64,000 nt of DNA, taken from the sequence record JN254800.1; one strand, given 5' to 3'. This DNA comes from Pseudomonas phage NH-4. The position numbers and the translations under genes are program-made. Of this stretch, positions 7,006 to 13,086 are shown piece by piece (positions within the stretch are counted from its first letter, which is position 1; each line of letters begins with the position of its first letter). The notes under the pieces are model-generated. The model saw nothing but the letters and a program-made list of their open reading frames with translations. It did no database searches and was not told the DNA's origin.

Positions 7006-9303
7006 ATGTTTAAACTTTCCTGGATATTCGGGCGCAAAAAGGATAATGCTGCCTGTTCTGAATCGGCGCCGGAGAAAGTCGCACAAATCCCTCAACACGA
7101 TCCGCTCGACCCCATGATAAAGCTGGGAAGGATTCGCGGCTGGAACGTCGAGCCGGAGAAAGCCCCGGTCATTCGTAGTGTGAAAGATTTCCTGGAGCCG
7201 GGCCTATCTGTCGCAATGGATAGTGCGTATGGTGATGGACCAACCCCGGCCGCGAAGGCTGCTGCGGGCGGCCAGAATCCCTATGTCGTCCCGACTATGT
7301 TGCAGGACTGGTACAATTCCCAAGGGTTCATCGGATACCAAGCTTGCGCAATCATTTCCCAACACTGGTTGGTGGACAAAGCTTGTTCCATGTCTGGGGA
7401 AGACGCAGCACGGAACGGATGGGAACTCAAATCGGACGGCAGGAAGCTATCCGATGAACAAAGCGCGCTGATCGCCCGGCGCGACATGGAGTTTCGCGTC
7501 AAAGACAACCTCGTCGAACTCAACAGATTCAAGAACGTTTTCGGCGTTCGCATCGCGCTGTTCGTTGTGGAGTCTGACGATCCGGACTACTACGAAAAAC
7601 CGTTCAATCCGGATGGAATCACGCCCGGCTCCTACAAGGGAATCTCCCAGATCGATCCATACTGGGCGATGCCGCAGCTCACTGCCGGCTCGACGGCCGA
7701 TCCGTCTTCCGAACATTTCTATGAGCCGGATTTCTGGATTATCAGCGGGAAGAAATATCATCGCAGCCATCTAGTAGTCGTTCGCGGACCGCAGCCGCCA
7801 GACATCCTGAAGCCTACATACATCTTCGGCGGTATCCCGCTCACCCAGAGAATCTATGAGCGCGTGTATGCGGCGGAACGGACGGCGAACGAAGCCCCGC
7901 TGCTTGCCATGTCGAAGCGAACCAGCACCATTCACGTTGACGTGGAAAAGGCCATCGCGAATGAAGACGCTTTCAACGCTCGCCTGGCGTTCTGGATTGC
8001 CAATCGCGATAACCACGGCGTGAAAGTCTTGGGTACTGATGAAAGCATGGAGCAGTTCGACACGAACCTTGCCGACTTCGACAGCATCATCATGAACCAA
8101 TATCAGCTGGTCGCTGCCATCGCCAAGACTCCAGCTACGAAGCTCCTCGGCACTTCTCCAAAAGGATTCAATGCCACTGGTGAGCACGAAACGATTTCTT
8201 ATCACGAAGAACTGGAGTCCATTCAAGAGCACATATTCGACCCACTTCTTGAACGCCACTATTTGCTTCTGGCGAAGTCGGAAGAAATCGATGTGCAGCT
8301 GGAAATCGTCTGGAACCCTGTGGACTCCACGTCCAGCCAGCAACAAGCCGAATTGAACAATAAGAAAGCCGCGACCGATGAAATCTACATCAACTCTGGC
8401 GTTGTGTCGCCGGATGAAGTTCGCGAGCGTCTGCGCGACGATCCGCGTTCCGGCTACAACCGACTCACCGACGATCAGGCAGAAACCGAACCGGGCATGT
8501 CTCCGGAAAACCTGGCCGAATTCGAGAAGGCCGGTGCACAGTCGGCCAAGGCGAAAGGCGAAGCCGAGCGAGCCGAAGCCCAGGCGGGCGCCGTAGAGGG
8601 CGCAGGCGCCCCGGTTCCCGCCGCTCCACGCGGGACTAAGCCTCTCGCGAAAGCGGCCGAGGAAGGGGCCAGCGAGGCCGCTGAACCGCCGTCGCGGCCG
8701 GACCCCAAGGCCGAGCTGCGGAACTTGTTGGTCGATCTTTTATCGAAGCTCCAAGACCTGGACGACATTAAGGCGCCGGACGGCGTAGACATAGAGTACA
8801 ATGATGCGCCTGGCTTAAAGCGCACGTCCAAACCTGGCGTGTCTGGCATGGAGCCTTCGGTGTTTTCGTCCAACCGCATCGTCGGGCCTCGTGATCATTC
8901 GGAACTCCAGAGAATCAAGGTGAATGGAATAACCACCTTGATCGAAAATCCGCGCGGAAGCATTCGGCAAGGAAAGGATGGGAGTTGGCGAGTTCAGATG
9001 AAACACCACTACGGGTTCATCAAGGGAACGAAAGGCGCTGATGGGGATGAAGTCGATTGCTTCGTCGGTCCGAATCTGGGATCCAAACGGGTCTTCGTCG
9101 TCAACCAGGTGAACAAGGAAGGTCAGTTTGACGAGCACAAGTGCATGCTCGGCTTCAACAACATCAACGATGCGAAGTCTGGATATCTGTCCTGCTTCCG
9201 CCCAGGTTGGGATGGTCTCGGCTCCATACATGAAGTTGACCTACCCGCGTTCCGTCGCTGGCTGGCGAACGGCGACACAACCAAACCGTTCGGGGGCGAG
9301 TGA
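7006..9303 (+). CDS. portal protein (DUF1073-like core) fused to C-terminal inorganic-pyrophosphatase-like domain
   Basis: The N-terminal 490 aa give a portal-like profile, and the gene sits immediately upstream of the Mu-F-like gene. aa 497-575 are an Ala/Glu/Pro-rich linker. aa 632-765 carry PPase motifs: IENPRGS, HYGFIKGT, DGDEVDC and FDEHK. Confidence 0.7.
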   Translation: MFKLSWIFGRKKDNAACSESAPEKVAQIPQHDPLDPMIKLGRIRGWNVEPEKAPVIRSVKDFLEPGLSVAMDSAYGDGPTPAAKAAAGGQNPYVVPTMLQDWYNSQGFIGYQACAIISQHWLVDKACSMSGEDAARNGWELKSDGRKLSDEQSALIARRDMEFRVKDNLVELNRFKNVFGVRIALFVVESDDPDYYEKPFNPDGITPGSYKGISQIDPYWAMPQLTAGSTADPSSEHFYEPDFWIISGKKYHRSHLVVVRGPQPPDILKPTYIFGGIPLTQRIYERVYAAERTANEAPLLAMSKRTSTIHVDVEKAIANEDAFNARLAFWIANRDNHGVKVLGTDESMEQFDTNLADFDSIIMNQYQLVAAIAKTPATKLLGTSPKGFNATGEHETISYHEELESIQEHIFDPLLERHYLLLAKSEEIDVQLEIVWNPVDSTSSQQQAELNNKKAATDEIYINSGVVSPDEVRERLRDDPRSGYNRLTDDQAETEPGMSPENLAEFEKAGAQSAKAKGEAERAEAQAGAVEGAGAPVPAAPRGTKPLAKAAEEGASEAAEPPSRPDPKAELRNLLVDLLSKLQDLDDIKAPDGVDIEYNDAPGLKRTSKPGVSGMEPSVFSSNRIVGPRDHSELQRIKVNGITTLIENPRGSIRQGKDGSWRVQMKHHYGFIKGTKGADGDEVDCFVGPNLGSKRVFVVNQVNKEGQFDEHKCMLGFNNINDAKSGYLSCFRPGWDGLGSIHEVDLPAFRRWLANGDTTKPFGGE

Positions 9304-10139
9304 TGGCATTCAAGGCCTCCAAAAAGCGCGAACGCCGGGCACCTCTTCCAGTCGGAAGAGGGAAGCCCATAATTCCATCGGCAGGAATCGAGGCCTGGTA
9401 TCGAAAGCAGATGAAGGATATGTCCAAGCTCATGATCGCCGACTATCGAAGCGAGATTGAGAATGCACTGTCCCAGCCTGCGGCCGAACGGTTCTTCGCC
9501 AGCGACGAATCCGTTAACGTTCTGTTCAAGATGACCCTTCGAAGCCTACAGCAGCGATGGAGCCGCATTTTTGAAGGCTTCGCGGCCAAGATCGCCCCGG
9601 AGTTTGTTAACCGGACCGAAGAAGCGGCCACCGCCGCGACCCTGCACAGCTTGTCTGTGGCCGGCGTCGATCAGCCAAGAGCTGCGTACAATGAGAGCGT
9701 CAGGAATACCCTGGAGGCAGCAACTACTTACAACCATACTCTCATCACCAGGATTCAAGAGGAAGTCCACGAGAAGATTTACACATCAGTAATGTTGTCT
9801 CTGACTTCCCCAAATCCGGAAGAGCAAGGAACTTCCGGCATAACGAACGCACTTCGCAAAGTCGGGAAGTTCTCTGAAGATCGAATCGAACTCATCGCAA
9901 GAGATCAAACCAGCAAGCTTTACAGTTCTCTGAGCGATGAGAGAATGGCGGAAAATGGAGTCGAGGAATTCGAGTGGATGCACTCTTCTGCCGGCAAGAC
10001 TCCTCGCCATACCCACCTGGAGAAAGATGGGAAAAGGTTCAAGCTGAATGACCCCAGACTTTGGGAGGGTCCGAAGGCCGACCAGGGGCCGCCAGGATGG
10101 GCGATTAACTGTAGGTGCAGAAAGATACCAATCATTTGA
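9303..10139 (+). CDS. head morphogenesis protein (Mu gpF / SPP1 gp7 family)
   Basis: Start overlaps the portal stop (TGATG). A C-terminal CRC-containing motif (INCRCRK) is typical of the Phage_Mu_F family, and the position after the portal fits. Confidence 0.65.
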   Translation: MAFKASKKRERRAPLPVGRGKPIIPSAGIEAWYRKQMKDMSKLMIADYRSEIENALSQPAAERFFASDESVNVLFKMTLRSLQQRWSRIFEGFAAKIAPEFVNRTEEAATAATLHSLSVAGVDQPRAAYNESVRNTLEAATTYNHTLITRIQEEVHEKIYTSVMLSLTSPNPEEQGTSGITNALRKVGKFSEDRIELIARDQTSKLYSSLSDERMAENGVEEFEWMHSSAGKTPRHTHLEKDGKRFKLNDPRLWEGPKADQGPPGWAINCRCRKIPII

Positions 10140-10157
10140 TATCGATAGGAGCGCTAT

Positions 10158-10364
10158 ATGCCGTTAGTTCATGGCACTTCCAATGAGGCTCGTTCTGAAA
10201 ACATCAAGCGGGAGATCGAAGCCGGTAAAGACCCAAAGCAGGCTGCGGCCATCGCTTACTCCATCCAGCGCAGTGAGAAAGGGAAGACGGCGAAAGATTG
10301 TTCGCCTGAGCTCGTTGCCGATCTTCGCGCCCTGGTGGACGCTCTGTCGAGGCTCGTGAAATGA
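10158..10364 (+). CDS. small hypothetical protein (68 aa), moron-like position
   Basis: RBS TAGGAG 7 nt before the ATG. No similarity recognised. Confidence 0.45.
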
Positions 10365-10501
10365 ACCGCAAGACATGCCGGCGCCGACTCGTGGTCGATG
10401 TAATCAGGGCCAATATTCACGGCGGATTCTTCAGCCTGAAGTTTGCCGCCATCGATTTGGCAATCATCGGCGTCGCCATCTTGATGACTTTTGGCCGATA
10501 A
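10361..10501 (+). CDS. possible small membrane protein (46 aa)
   Basis: ATG overlaps the upstream TGA. C-terminal hydrophobic [15 protein letters not shown]. Below the ORF-track length cutoff. Confidence 0.25.
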
Positions 10502-10544
10502 TGCTGAGAAAATCTGGATTCTGACTAAAAATTCTAGTCCGGAT

Positions 10545-10880
10545 AGCCGCAAGTTACCGTTTACGGAAAATAGCAGTAATTTGGAAAGCCTACTGCCGCG
10601 AGGCTTTAACAGAGCTAGTTCCTAATTTCCGATTTAGCCGCGTGCTTCAAAAGTATATAGCCTGGGAAATTAGAAGTAACGTTCCAATAGAATTCATCTA
10701 TAAGTAACGTTATAATATAACGTCAATCTATATGCTCTAGACGTATTGAAATTCAATTTTTAATTGGTAAATTGGTAATTTGGATTAGTTTAGGAGTTGA
10801 AAGTCTCGCGGCAGTAGGCTTAGACAAATCCCGTAAAGTTTCCGAGACCAAATTACCGGATTTTCGCGGCTGAGGAAACT
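10545..10880. repeat. AT-rich non-coding cassette copy 1: 17-bp perfect inverted repeats (10586-10602 / 10805-10821) flanking a palindrome-rich AT core
   Basis: AAGCCTACTGCCGCGAG and its reverse complement lie 202 bp apart. The internal palindrome ACGTTATA-A-TATAACGT is at 10707-10723. Homologous to 56370-56720. Confidence 0.7.
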
Positions 10881-10959
10881 GGTAATTAGATCATAATATA
10901 AATTATAATGTAAGTTAACAGTCGCGGCTACATCTAATTATTGTTCCGCTTATTTACCC

Positions 10960-10995
10960 TTAGATGTACTGCGTATATAATACAGCCATAGTCCA
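10960..10995 (+). promoter_or_regulatory. sigma70-like promoter for scaffold/capsid genes (TTTACC N17 TATAAT)
   Basis: ATTTACCCTTAGATGTACTGCGTATATAAT lies about 25 nt upstream of ATG 11014. Confidence 0.4.
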
Positions 10996-11013
10996 CGACT
11001 CTTCGAATTAACG

Positions 11014-12447
11014 ATGACAAAGTCGAAAAGAAAAATTGACGAAAATGGATATATGACCATCGAGGGCTGCCCGATCAGCTCTTATGGCGTTTTCCAGTAT
11101 TCTGCTGGTCAACTCGGTCTTCCGGGCGATCCGACGCGGATTGTCAACGTATATCGCCCGGAGTCTGCCGTCAGCGATCCTGAGTACATCGAATCTCTGA
11201 AGAATCTCCCGTTGATCGACGAGCACGAAATGCTGTCGGGATTCGACGACGATGACGACAGCGTGGCCCCCGAAGACAAAGGGGTGGAGGGCATCATCAC
11301 CTCCAACGCTTACTACGAAGCCCCATGGGCTCGCGGCGATATCCGCATCTATTCCCGCAACATGCAGAATCAGCTGGAAAGGGGCAAAGAAGACCTGTCC
11401 CTAGGCTATAGTTGCCGCTACACTGAGCAACCCGGCATCTGGAACGGGACGCCTTATGAAGTCGTCCAGGACAAGATGCGCGGCAACCACATCGCCCTGG
11501 TAAAAGAGGGTCGTGTGCCGGGGGCCAGAGTATTGGATGGTCTGTGTTTTGACCATCTCAGTTTTGATTTCAGACCATCCGATGAGGGTAATGAAATGAG
11601 TCTCAAGAAAGCCAAGCGGAAGCCCCCTGTCCAGCGCGTAGGGCAAGCTGCTGACTCGGCGGTCGAAGAGTTGCGCACCCTGTGGCCGAAACTCTCTGCG
11701 TCTGTCCAGAAGTTCCTGGGCGAAGAAGAGCAGGAGCCGGAGCATCAGGAAGGCGCCGCTCCGGCCGAACCGACCGACAGCGAGCACCTGACCGAGCATC
11801 CGACTCTGGAAGGCGCCCAGAAGGACGACGAAGAGCAGGAAGAGGAGCCTTCCGTTGTCGATCCGGCCGTGGCCGCCGTCGAGCCGGAGCATCAAGAAAG
11901 CGCCGCATCCGAAATGTCCGGTGAAGGCGAAGTCGCCGAACTGATCTCTCAGGTCAAAGCCATTCTGGCTCGACTGGAGGGAACGGTAGCCGAAGGGGCA
12001 GACGAAGAGCATGGCGAAGGTCAAGATGTCGTCGAGGGTTTGGAGGAGCAGAGCAGCCTCAGCGGCTCGCAAACCGCCAGCGACGATGGTGGTGAGAGCA
12101 AGGATAACAGCGAGGAACTTCCTGAAATGGCACAGAAGAACGCGCAAGATGCTGCAATTCGCGGTCTCTATCGCGACATTGCTGCTAAAGATCGCCTCTA
12201 CAAGCGTCTTAGCTCCGTGGTTGGTGCGTTCGATCACCGAGCTATGGACTCGGCTGAAGTCGCTGTTTACGGCGTGAAAAAGCTGAACATCAGCTGCGCG
12301 AAGGGCCAGGAAGCTCTGGCGCTCGACATGTACCTGAAAGGCGTCGAAGCCTCGCGCGGCGCGGCCAGCCGTCAATCGAAAGCCCAGGATTCGGCCGGTT
12401 CTGCTCCGCAGTGCGCCGAGCTGGACAGCTACCTGAAGGGGGAGTAA
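11014..12447 (+). CDS. scaffolding protein with N-terminal DUF2213-like domain (possible prohead protease/scaffold)
   Basis: The N-terminal 190 aa are globular. An acidic E/Q/P-rich low-complexity middle is followed by a C-terminal helical region. Located between the Mu-F-like gene and the capsid gene. Confidence 0.55.
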   Translation: MTKSKRKIDENGYMTIEGCPISSYGVFQYSAGQLGLPGDPTRIVNVYRPESAVSDPEYIESLKNLPLIDEHEMLSGFDDDDDSVAPEDKGVEGIITSNAYYEAPWARGDIRIYSRNMQNQLERGKEDLSLGYSCRYTEQPGIWNGTPYEVVQDKMRGNHIALVKEGRVPGARVLDGLCFDHLSFDFRPSDEGNEMSLKKAKRKPPVQRVGQAADSAVEELRTLWPKLSASVQKFLGEEEQEPEHQEGAAPAEPTDSEHLTEHPTLEGAQKDDEEQEEEPSVVDPAVAAVEPEHQESAASEMSGEGEVAELISQVKAILARLEGTVAEGADEEHGEGQDVVEGLEEQSSLSGSQTASDDGGESKDNSEELPEMAQKNAQDAAIRGLYRDIAAKDRLYKRLSSVVGAFDHRAMDSAEVAVYGVKKLNISCAKGQEALALDMYLKGVEASRGAASRQSKAQDSAGSAPQCAELDSYLKGE

Positions 12448-12450
12448 CTC

Positions 12451-13086
12451 ATGTTCCAGAAACAAGTTTACCGCCAGTACACTCCTGGTTTTCCGGGCGA
12501 TCTGATCGAGGACGGCCCGAAGCGGGCGCGGCCGGGTCGAATCATGTCTCTGTCTGCCGTAAATCCGGCTGCCACCGCCACCGGCCCCAACCGCATCAGT
12601 CGCGCTTTCGGTTACGCCGGTGACGTCAGCGCCCTCGGTGAAGGTCAGCCGAAGACCATCGCGGCTCGTGCTTCTGAAGTCGTGATCGGCGGCGCCAACT
12701 TCTTCGGCGTCCTCGGCCATCCGAAGCATTATGCCCTGTTCGGTTCGGCCGGCGACTCCCTGGCTCCCAGCTATGATCTGCCCGATGGCGCCGAAGGCGA
12801 GTTCTTCGACATGGCCACCGGCCTGGTCGTCGAAATTTTCAACGGCGCCGCAGCCGCCCTGGACCTGGACTATGGTGACCTGGTCGCCTATGTCCCCAAC
12901 AACCTGGCTACCGCCGACAACGCGCTTGGCCTGCCGGCCGGCGCCCTGGTTGGCTTCAAGACTGGCTCCATGCCGACCGGCTTGGTCCAGATTCCCAACG
13001 CACGCATCGTTAACGCCATCAGTCTGCCGGCCCAGTCGGCGGGGAATCTGGTTGCTGGCGTTACCATCGTCCAGCTCACGCAGTAA
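12451..13086 (+). CDS. head structural protein (211 aa, Gly/Ala-rich; decoration or minor capsid protein)
   Basis: Lies between the scaffold and major capsid genes, with RBS GGGGGAG. Confidence 0.4.
   Translation: MFQKQVYRQYTPGFPGDLIEDGPKRARPGRIMSLSAVNPAATATGPNRISRAFGYAGDVSALGEGQPKTIAARASEVVIGGANFFGVLGHPKHYALFGSAGDSLAPSYDLPDGAEGEFFDMATGLVVEIFNGAAAALDLDYGDLVAYVPNNLATADNALGLPAGALVGFKTGSMPTGLVQIPNARIVNAISLPAQSAGNLVAGVTIVQLTQ

What the first reader, a model, noticed from the sequence alone, without database searches (positions are those of the whole stretch)
8899..9303. Portal protein carries a C-terminal inorganic-pyrophosphatase-like domain
The portal is a 765-aa continuous ORF. Its N-terminal 490 aa are the portal core. 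aa 497-575 are an Ala/Glu/Pro-rich linker. aa 632-765 align with soluble family-I inorganic pyrophosphatases. IENPRGS matches EIPKGS (E20). HYGFIKGT matches NYGFIPQT (Y55). DGDEVDC satisfies the PPase PROSITE pattern D-[SGDN]-D-[PE]-[LIVMF]-D-[LIVMGAC], which holds the three metal-ligand Asp residues. FDEHK matches D102-x-K104. An enzymatic PPase module covalently attached to a portal is, to my knowledge, undescribed. It could sit inside the capsid or be ejected with DNA. It could be cleaved off during maturation. It could also hydrolyse a nucleotide-derived signal rather than PPi.
Basis: partly seen in the sequence, partly recalled or inferred. Interest (0 to 1): 0.85.

Follow-up and report, generated by a model that had tools for sequence, protein, structure and literature searches.

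The report
Phage portal with known pyrophosphatase-like domain
The portal protein of Pseudomonas phage LMA2 really does end in a pyrophosphatase-like enzyme domain, but this fusion was already described in 2017 for a closely related phage, has its own Pfam family, and still has no tested function.

Summary

The fusion is not an artefact. About 290 Pbunavirus genomes and relatives infecting other genera carry it, while the nearest outgroup portals (491 and 508 aa) lack it.

The novelty claim is wrong. Iyer et al. 2017 (PMC5512222) defined the InPase domain of virion-packaged 'polyvalent proteins' and cited its fusion to the portal of BcepF1. That protein is 57% identical, end to end, to this one.

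Function is untested. Cryo-EM of E217 and Pa193 shows no density for aa 529-765. The best guess is a capsid-carried Mg-dependent pyrophosphohydrolase effector. Novelty: already known. Interest: low to moderate.

The parts
7006..9303 (+). gp17, a 765-aa portal-InPase fusion protein (RefSeq name 'minor head protein')
   Evidence: The ORF is listed. It is 100% identical to LMA2_gp17. It matches PHROG 4660 over its full length, 765/765. PDB entry 9b41 chain L, the Pa193 gp19 portal, is 765 aa and near-identical.
7006..7284 (+). N-terminal 93 aa, poorly conserved
   Evidence: Identity to portal-InPase homologues is 25-37%. The Pa193 paper reports no cryo-EM density and no LC-MS peptides for this part (PMC11456595).
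7285..8589 (+). Portal core plus C-terminal helical barrel (aa 94-528)
   Evidence: PF06381 matches aa 111-459 with E=2e-100. The cryo-EM models of E217 cover aa 97-528 and those of Pa193 cover aa 94-528. The core is 58-69% identical in homologues.
8590..8892 (+). Ala/Pro/Glu/Gly-rich, fast-evolving linker (aa 529-629). It contains a helix-like stretch, ELRNLLVDLLSKLQDLDD, and a conserved RT-x-KPG...PSV motif just before the domain.
   Evidence: Composition and the 17-30% identity with many gaps come. Cryo-EM shows no density here.
8893..9300 (+). InPase domain (aa 630-765; Pfam match aa 635-753, window 8908-9264)
8944..8946 (+). E647, the equivalent of E. coli PPase E20
   Evidence: It is invariant in 161 of 162 representatives. 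hhalign pairs it with E20.
9010..9060 (+). Y669-G670 ... D679-G-D681-E-V-D684-C: the Y55 equivalent and the PPase signature carrying the three Asp metal ligands (D65/D67/D70)
   Evidence: hhalign probability is 93% for aa 666-688 against E. coli residues 51-73. Y669, G670 and D684 are 162/162; D679 is 161/162; D681 is D in 151 and E in 10. The regex match is and the translation.
9130..9141 (+). D709-E710-H711-K712, a family-invariant acid/base motif on a predicted beta-strand. It is a candidate equivalent of the D102/K104 strand, but the register is unresolved.
   Evidence: Conservation: D709 158/162, E710 162/162, K712 160/162. The model places it on strand E89-96. Three programs gave three conflicting alignments.
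9303..10139 (+). gp18, a MuF-like head morphogenesis protein. Its start overlaps the gp17 stop as TGATG.
   Evidence: PF04233 matches with E=3e-11 and PHROG 324 with E=6e-95. The sequence is and the annotation.
11014..12447 (+). gp21, a DUF2213 protein annotated as head maturation protease. It is a candidate for any processing of gp17.
   Evidence: PF09979 matches with E=1.5e-33. Cleavage of gp17 by this protein is inference only.

Best explanation
gp17 of phage LMA2 is the dodecameric portal protein. Its C-terminus was extended, in the common ancestor of the PB1-like clade, by a roughly 100-aa flexible linker and a 135-aa 'InPase' domain (Pfam PF18823). InPase is the phage-specific, hairpin-less branch of the family-I (OB-fold) inorganic pyrophosphatase superfamily, and it is otherwise scattered through giant virion-packaged 'polyvalent' effector proteins.

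Shown here:
- the domain's identity
- its homology to family-I PPases
- conservation of the metal-binding E/D residues
- purifying selection on the domain compared with the linker
- recurrent, independent fusion of InPase to three different portal families and to MuF

Inferred:
- The extension follows the barrel helices, which point into the head. Twelve copies would therefore be carried inside the capsid on flexible tethers, which would explain why symmetrised cryo-EM maps do not show them.
- The domain is probably an active Mg2+-dependent hydrolase of a pyrophosphate bond.
- Fusion to the portal is probably a packaging device. It loads the enzyme into the virion so that it is present at the start of the next infection, most likely after proteolytic release in the linker. 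There it would clear PPi or destroy a nucleotide-type pyrophosphate compound.
For: Identity:
- PF18823 E=3e-43 and PF06381 E=2e-100 on one ORF.

Homology to PPases:
- All 22 non-self hits of the family profile in the PDB are family-I PPases, best E=0.0018.
- hhalign gives 93% probability for the Y55...D70 block.

Catalytic residues:
- E647, R654, Y669, D679, D681, D684, D709, E710 and K712 are (near-)invariant in 162 cluster representatives.

Selection:
- InPase is 97% or more identical at the amino-acid level in about 293 phage records, while 85 records are only 80-90% identical at the DNA level.
- In distant homologues InPase is 46-52% identical without gaps, against 17-30% with gaps for the linker.

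Accretion:
- The outgroup portals of Bordetella IFTN8 (491 aa) and Shewanella 1/41 (508 aa) stop where the linker begins, and the MuF gene follows directly.

Packaging theme:
- The family has 11,317 cluster representatives, mostly 1000-6650-aa proteins.
- It is fused to PF06381, PF04860 and PF06074 portals and to MuF.
- Iyer et al. 2017 reached the same reading.

Location:
- The barrel projects into the head, and aa 529-765 have no density.

Presence in particles:
- SCUT-S1 ORF20 was covered 59% by MS. That exceeds the 56.9% possible from aa 94-528 alone.
Against: - No enzymatic or genetic data exist for any PF18823 member in the literature searched.
- The classical PF00719 threshold is not reached.
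- The K29/E31 hairpin is missing, K142 is not conserved, and Y141 is F in LMA2. PPi itself may therefore not be the substrate, or activity may be low.
- The portal clade also lacks the G-[ND]-Y-x-K-G cap found in most family members.
- A portal-tethered domain cannot reach the host through a tail of about 130-150 nm unless it is cleaved, and no cleavage has been shown.
- The MS coverage argument is indirect. It used whole-lane digestion, has no peptide list, and comes from a different Pbunavirus.
Confidence: 0.6

Rival explanations
1. The domain is a housekeeping-type PPi hydrolase that works in the producing cell. Portal protein made late in infection simply adds PPase activity, which pulls DNA replication and transcription forward. 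Under this reading the fusion has nothing to do with delivery.
For: - The metal-ligand set is conserved.
- Iyer et al. list PPi clearance as one option.
- gp17 is expressed from the late structural operon, which has predicted promoters upstream.
Against: - It does not explain why InPase is recurrently fused to portals of three families, to MuF and to virion-packaged polyvalent proteins.
- The host already has an efficient PPase (4xel).
- The K29/E31 hairpin and K142, which bind PPi in classical enzymes (established PPase enzymology), are absent.
Confidence: 0.15
2. The domain is a non-catalytic structural module inside the head. Possible roles are a cation- or DNA-binding OB-fold that organises the last-packaged DNA around the barrel, or an assembly or scaffold-like plug that is removed by the prohead protease.
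For: - OB folds often bind nucleic acids.
- The domain sits next to the DNA-sensing barrel, which unfolds after ejection.
- It has a near-neutral pI of 7.9, against 4.8-4.9 for the core and the linker.
- The N-terminus of the portal is suspected to be processed.
Against: - Near-invariance of six acidic residues plus R, K and Y at positions matching a hydrolase active site, across 162 divergent representatives in completely different protein contexts, is the signature of catalysis and not of a structural role specific to portals.
- The nearest portals work without the domain.
Confidence: 0.1
3. The fusion is an artefact: a sequencing or assembly frameshift joined a portal gene to a separate downstream gene.
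For: None was found. The only weak hint is that the Pseudomonas phage WP1 hit is split into two pieces, and that was not followed up.
Against: - The continuous ORF is present in 289 independently sequenced genomes at 80% or more coverage.
- It is present in BcepF1 at 57% identity and colinear across the junction.
- It is present in the metagenomic proteins P0015, P0021 and P0139 and in Serratia phage MTx.
- The full 765-aa sequence was deposited for the Pa193 portal.
Confidence: 0.01

Closest known systems
InPase domain of phage polyvalent proteins (Pfam PF18823; Iyer, Burroughs, Anand, de Souza & Aravind 2017, J Bacteriol 199:e00245-17), including the cited portal fusion BcepF1.124 / YP_001039808.1
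   Same: - The same Pfam family (E=3e-43).
- The same hairpin-less architecture.
- The same portal(PF06381)-linker-InPase order, with the MuF gene downstream.
- BcepF1.124 is 57% identical over the full length.
   Different: - LMA2 lacks the roughly 55-aa acidic tail that follows InPase in BcepF1.
- LMA2 has a 4-residue deletion in the GKDG--SW loop.
- The whole PB1-like portal clade lacks the N-terminal G-[ND]-Y-x-K-G cap found in 111 of 162 representatives.
Family-I soluble inorganic pyrophosphatase (Pfam PF00719; for example E. coli Ppa, P. aeruginosa 4xel)
   Same: - An OB-barrel-like fold with the same order of secondary-structure elements.
- Equivalents of E20, Y55 and D65/D67/D70.
- The PROSITE-type signature DGDEVDC.
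   Different: - It scores below the PF00719 gathering threshold.
- An 11-residue deletion removes the K29/E31 hairpin.
- K142 is not conserved, and Y141 is F in LMA2.
- It is about 135 aa long instead of about 175.
- It is fused to a structural protein rather than being a free hexamer.
Portal or MuF fusions that carry effector domains into the capsid (portal/MuF-PBECR, portal/MuF-2H; MuF of phage Mu; SPP1 gp7; T4 Alt; P1 DarB), as summarised in PMC5512222
   Same: The logic is the same: an enzymatic cargo is covalently attached to a head-internal component of a portal-terminase phage, next to the MuF gene.
   Different: - The cargo here is a phosphohydrolase of unknown substrate.
- It is attached to the portal itself, which stays in the virion, so release would need cleavage. 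That has not been demonstrated.
Solved Pbunavirus portals: E217 gp19 (PDB 8fvh) and Pa193 gp19 (PDB 9b41)
   Same: They are the same protein, about 98-99% identical, with a portal fold plus a C-terminal helical barrel.
   Different: Those studies modelled only aa 94/97-528 and do not mention the pyrophosphatase-like domain. aa 529-765 had no discernible density.

Membership tests
Pfam PF18823 InPase (phage polyvalent-protein pyrophosphatase-like domain) | The profile HMM score exceeds the gathering threshold | tested here: met
   147.3 bits against a cutoff of 26.8, E=3e-43, aa 635-753 aligned to profile positions 12-134 of 135.
Pfam PF18823 InPase (phage polyvalent-protein pyrophosphatase-like domain) | The beta-hairpin between strands 1 and 2 of classical PPases is absent (Iyer 2017) | tested here: met
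   hhalign places an 11-residue gap in InPase opposite E. coli residues of about 23-33.
Pfam PF18823 InPase (phage polyvalent-protein pyrophosphatase-like domain) | The family-invariant residues are conserved (E, R, W, YG, DxDxxD, Q, DExK, A, Y, Y, W, W) | tested here: met
   LMA2 has all of them except Y731, which is F here as in 13 of 162 representatives.
Pfam PF18823 InPase (phage polyvalent-protein pyrophosphatase-like domain) | It occurs in virion-associated phage proteins (polyvalent, portal or MuF context) | tested here: met
   It is fused to the portal with the MuF gene immediately downstream. The family context is shown.
Pfam PF18823 InPase (phage polyvalent-protein pyrophosphatase-like domain) | The N-terminal G-[ND]-Y-x-K-G cap typical of most members is present | tested here: not met
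   LMA2 and the other PB1-like portal fusions have x-L-P/Q-K/R-M/I-K instead. The Pfam match starts at profile position 12. This is a subfamily difference and not an exclusion.
Classical family-I soluble inorganic pyrophosphatase (PF00719 / PROSITE PS00387) | The PF00719 score exceeds the gathering threshold | tested here: not met
   14.9 bits for the whole protein and 17.6 bits for the domain alone, against a cutoff of 23.5. Only 25 residues align.
   DGDEVDC at aa 679-685. The pattern occurs in 14 of 20,000 shuffles.
Classical family-I soluble inorganic pyrophosphatase (PF00719 / PROSITE PS00387) | It has the OB-barrel PPase fold | tested here: met
Classical family-I soluble inorganic pyrophosphatase (PF00719 / PROSITE PS00387) | It has equivalents of E20, Y55, D65, D67 and D70 | tested here: met
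   They are E647, Y669, D679, D681 and D684.
Classical family-I soluble inorganic pyrophosphatase (PF00719 / PROSITE PS00387) | It has equivalents of K29 and E31 | tested here: not met
   Both lie in the deleted hairpin.
Classical family-I soluble inorganic pyrophosphatase (PF00719 / PROSITE PS00387) | It has equivalents of D97, D102, K104, Y141 and K142 | tested here: inconclusive
   - D709, E710 and K712 are invariant and lie on a predicted strand.
- HMMER pairs D709 with D102.
- hhalign with a single sequence pairs FDEHK with YDHIK.
- hhalign with a profile pairs FDEHK with FEHYK.
- All three alignments have low confidence.
Classical family-I soluble inorganic pyrophosphatase (PF00719 / PROSITE PS00387) | It shows Mg2+-dependent PPi hydrolysis | not testable with these tools
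   This needs a biochemical assay. No published assay of any PF18823 member was found.
Phage portal protein (PF06381, Phage_portal_3) | It matches the profile and is orthologous to a structurally proven dodecameric portal | tested here: met
   PF06381 matches with E=2e-100. E217 gp19 (8fvh) and Pa193 gp19 (9b41) are near-identical.

The most novel reading that the evidence does not exclude
The twelve portal-tethered InPase domains are active against a nucleotide-derived compound rather than PPi. Candidates are an immune second messenger, an alarmone, or a nucleoside polyphosphate. The domains would be cut from the portal in the linker by the prohead protease and injected together with the DNA, making them a virion-borne anti-defence enzyme present from the first seconds of infection. 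The loss of the K29/E31 hairpin and of K142 (the PPi-binding residues) would then reflect a remodelled leaving-group pocket. The family's frequent partners (NT5C nucleotidase, 2H phosphoesterase, GGDEF, GNAT, ART) also fit this reading.
Probability: 0.2. Interest if true: 0.7.

Novelty: already known. Interest (0 to 1): 0.25.

Why it matters
The finding adds nothing to the catalogue. The domain family, its kinship with family-I pyrophosphatases, its lack of the hairpin and its fusion to this portal lineage were all published in 2017 and are in Pfam and UniProt.

Three gaps remain.

1. **Annotation.** RefSeq and PHROGs still call this protein 'minor head protein'. The two cryo-EM atlases of Pbunavirus therapeutic phages (E217 and Pa193) modelled aa 94-528 and do not mention that the invisible 237 residues include a conserved enzyme-like domain.
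2. **Function.** InPase is one of the most widespread phage effector-type domains, with more than 11,000 clusters at 50% identity. No member has a known substrate.
3. **A tractable test case.** Pbunaviruses are easy to grow and clinically used, and their capsids are already structurally characterised. The small portal fusion is therefore a convenient place to test what the domain does.

Tried and rejected
1. **Mapping the second half of the domain onto E. coli PPase.**
- HMMER with the family profile against PDB sequences, hhalign against a single E. coli sequence and hhalign against an 85-sequence enterobacterial PPase profile gave three different low-confidence registers.
- The PPase homologues retrieved were all 82% or more identical, so the profile stayed shallow.
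- Bridge sequences that hit both Pfam families (P0008, P0069) aligned only over the YG...DGDxVD block.
- The question is left inconclusive.

2. **Peptide-level proteomics for the C-terminus.**
- The Pa193 supplements are not held, either for the paper or for the preprint.
- The SCUT-S1 supplement holds no peptide list.
- The E217 supplements are small and were not searched.
- Ceyssens 2009 is not in the library.
- Only an indirect coverage argument was possible.

3. **Literature searches linking pyrophosphatase to a portal or to Pbunavirus.** Searches returned nothing relevant beyond Iyer 2017.

4. **Sequencing artefact or frameshift.** Rejected because the ORF is conserved.

5. **The word-index homologue search with the domain.** It found only 13 hits. 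The exhaustive search was needed to show the true family size.
Full report
**What is there**

The window is Pseudomonas phage LMA2, a PB1-like myovirus of the genus Pbunavirus. Window 7006-9303 is 100% identical to NC_011166 positions 9122-11419, annotated as LMA2_gp17 'minor head protein'. The ORF is continuous and encodes 765 aa.

Pfam finds two domains on it:
- Phage_portal_3 (PF06381) at aa 111-459, E=2e-100.
- InPase (PF18823) at aa 635-753, E=3e-43, 147 bits against a cutoff of 26.8.

The classical pyrophosphatase model PF00719 scores only 14.9-17.6 bits, below its 23.5-bit cutoff, and aligns just 25 residues. PHROG 4660 matches end to end, 765/765.

DGDEVDC fits the PPase signature pattern, which arises in only 14 of 20,000 shuffles of the protein.

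**It is a portal, and the fusion is real**

The protein is nearly identical to the portals solved by cryo-EM in E217 (8fvh) and Pa193 (9b41). Those studies modelled aa 94/97-528. [quoted passage not shown] They report no discernible density for aa 529-765.

The continuous reading frame is found in:
- 289 phage records at 80% or more coverage;
- PB1-like relatives infecting Escherichia, Xanthomonas, Serratia, Pantoea and Burkholderia;
- the metagenomic proteins P0015, P0021 and P0139.

A sequencing artefact is excluded.

Conservation differs by region. In distant homologues the core is 58-69% identical, the InPase domain is 46-52% identical with no gaps, and the linker is 17-30% identical with many gaps. 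Within Pbunavirus, InPase stays 97% or more identical in protein while 85 records have fallen to 80-90% identity in DNA. The pattern is two domains under purifying selection joined by a free-evolving tether.

The nearest portals outside this clade are Bordetella phage IFTN8 (49% identity, 491 aa) and Shewanella phage 1/41 (42% identity, 508 aa). Both contain only PF06381, both end where the LMA2 linker begins, and in both the MuF gene follows directly. The linker plus InPase is therefore an accretion between the end of the portal and the translationally coupled MuF gene. In LMA2 that coupling appears as a TGATG stop-start overlap.

**Is it pyrophosphatase-like?**

An AlphaFold2 model of aa 620-765 is confident (pLDDT 86.4, pTM 0.83). 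Its element order ends beta-beta-alpha-beta-alpha.

Structure searches against the PDB:
- Foldseek ranks PPases 1 to 49, but weakly, with E 0.009-0.3 and TM 0.25-0.43.

A profile built from 11 family members finds only family-I PPases among PDB sequences apart from the Pa193 portal itself, best E=0.0018. Homology is therefore specific but remote.

Across 162 cluster representatives the following are (near-)invariant: E647, R654, W661, Y669-G670, D679, D681, D684, Q701, D709, E710, K712, A723, Y727, Y731 (F in LMA2), W735 and W752.

hhalign against E. coli Ppa gives these results (the Ppa sequence came):
- E647 pairs with E20.
- Y669 pairs with Y55.
- D679/D681/D684 pair with D65/D67/D70, with 93% probability for that block.
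- An 11-residue deletion sits opposite the hairpin that carries K29 and E31, as Iyer et al. described.

**Prior knowledge**

Iyer, Burroughs, Anand, de Souza and Aravind (2017, PMC5512222) define the InPase domain of phage polyvalent proteins. [quoted passage not shown] They propose either a nucleotide-like substrate or PPi clearance.

I fetched BcepF1.124. It is 862 aa and 57% identical to LMA2 gp17 over the whole length. It has the same two Pfam domains and the same downstream MuF, protease, cement and capsid gene order. UniProt already labels viral homologues 'Inorganic pyrophosphatase domain-containing protein', and the best BFVD fold match is 'Portal protein [Serratia phage MTx]'.

One gap is real, however. 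No Pbunavirus paper in the library, including both cryo-EM atlases, mentions the domain.

**Family context**

An exhaustive search found 11,317 cluster representatives with E of 0.001 or less, and 9,423 with E of 1e-10 or less. Among the best 149 hits the median length is 1197 aa and 53 exceed 2000 aa.

Among 48 mid-sized members, InPase is fused to three different portal families (PF06381 three times, PF04860 once, PF06074 once) and to MuF once. Other partners include 2H phosphoesterase, NT5C nucleotidase, GNAT, GGDEF, Zeta toxin, DarA_N, ART and LPD domains.

Recurrent independent attachment to head-internal components supports the idea that the fusion is a way of loading the enzyme into the capsid.

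**How it most likely works**

Shown:
- the identity of the domain;
- the conserved acidic site;
- selection on the domain;
- its position after the inward-pointing barrel.

Inferred:
- Twelve flexibly tethered copies sit inside the head, which would explain why symmetric maps do not show them.
- The domain is a metal-dependent pyrophosphohydrolase.
- To act in a new host it must be released. About 135 residues of tether span at most about 47 nm, while the tail is about 130-150 nm. Release would presumably be by the DUF2213 prohead protease gp21.

Indirect evidence that the C-terminal part is present in particles comes from LiCl 'ghost' particles of Pbunavirus SCUT-S1. The 765-aa orthologue there was covered 59% by MS. 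That exceeds the 56.9% maximum available from aa 94-528, and far exceeds the 45% made up of detectable tryptic peptides in that region. Pa193 LC-MS found no peptides from the N-terminal 93 residues.

The substrate is unknown. The loss of K29, E31 and K142, together with the nucleotide-metabolising partner domains, leans toward something other than plain PPi. This is speculation, and it is shared with the 2017 paper.

**Verdict**

- The structural and enzymatic interpretation is supported in outline.
- The novelty claim is refuted.
- The feature is a member of a known, named and computationally described family, and an orthologue of the published example.
- Function remains experimentally open.
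- Interest is low to moderate, at 0.25.

Noticed in passing
window 9301-9305: The gp17 stop codon and the annotated gp18 (MuF-like) start codon overlap as TGATG, preceded by a GGGGGCGAG stretch. The same tight portal-to-MuF coupling occurs in BcepF1 (4-nt overlap) and in Shewanella phage 1/41 (1-nt overlap), which lacks InPase. The insertion therefore preserved the coupling.
   Followed up: partly
window 8704-8760 (aa 567-585) and 8818-8865 (aa 605-620): Two stretches inside the otherwise variable linker are conserved. One is an amphipathic helix-like stretch, ELRNLLVDLLSKLQDLDD. The other is a motif, RT-x-KPG-x(5-6)-PSV, found just before the InPase domain in LMA2, BcepF1, P0015 and P0021. 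Either could be a docking or protease-recognition element.
   Followed up: no
window 7006-7284 (aa 1-93): The portal N-terminus is poorly conserved (25-37% identity). According to the Pa193 paper it is seen neither by cryo-EM nor by LC-MS, so it may be removed during maturation.
   Followed up: no
window 8893-8940 (aa 630-645): PB1-like portal-fused InPases lack the N-terminal G-[ND]-Y-x-K-G cap found in 111 of 162 family representatives and carry x-L-P/Q-K/R-M/I-K instead. LMA2 also has a Pbunavirus-specific 4-residue deletion in the GKDG--SW loop. This may mark a functionally distinct subfamily.
   Followed up: partly
P0148, P0069, P0073 (proteins): P0148 fuses InPase to a Mu-type portal (PF06074), which is an independent fusion event. 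P0069 carries two InPase domains plus LigD 3'-phosphoesterase and DNA ligase domains, and its second InPase copy passes the classical PF00719 threshold. P0073 pairs InPase with an NT5C 5'-nucleotidase.
   Followed up: partly
Pseudomonas phage WP1, PP596839.1 positions 94103-94593 (hit H68): In this 106.9-kb record the InPase match (71% identity) is split into two pieces, and the record holds three matching places. This could be a frameshift, a duplication or an assembly problem.
   Followed up: no
window 11014-12447 and 12451-13086: gp21 is a DUF2213 (PF09979) protein annotated as head maturation protease. gp22 matches the Phage_cement family (PF22758), which was named after E217 gp24.
   Followed up: partly
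window 7006-9303 (database annotation): RefSeq, GenBank and PHROGs label this portal variously as 'minor head protein', 'putative structural protein', 'DUF1073 domain-containing protein' or 'hypothetical protein'. Only a few records say 'portal protein', and none of those listed mentions the InPase domain.
   Followed up: yes
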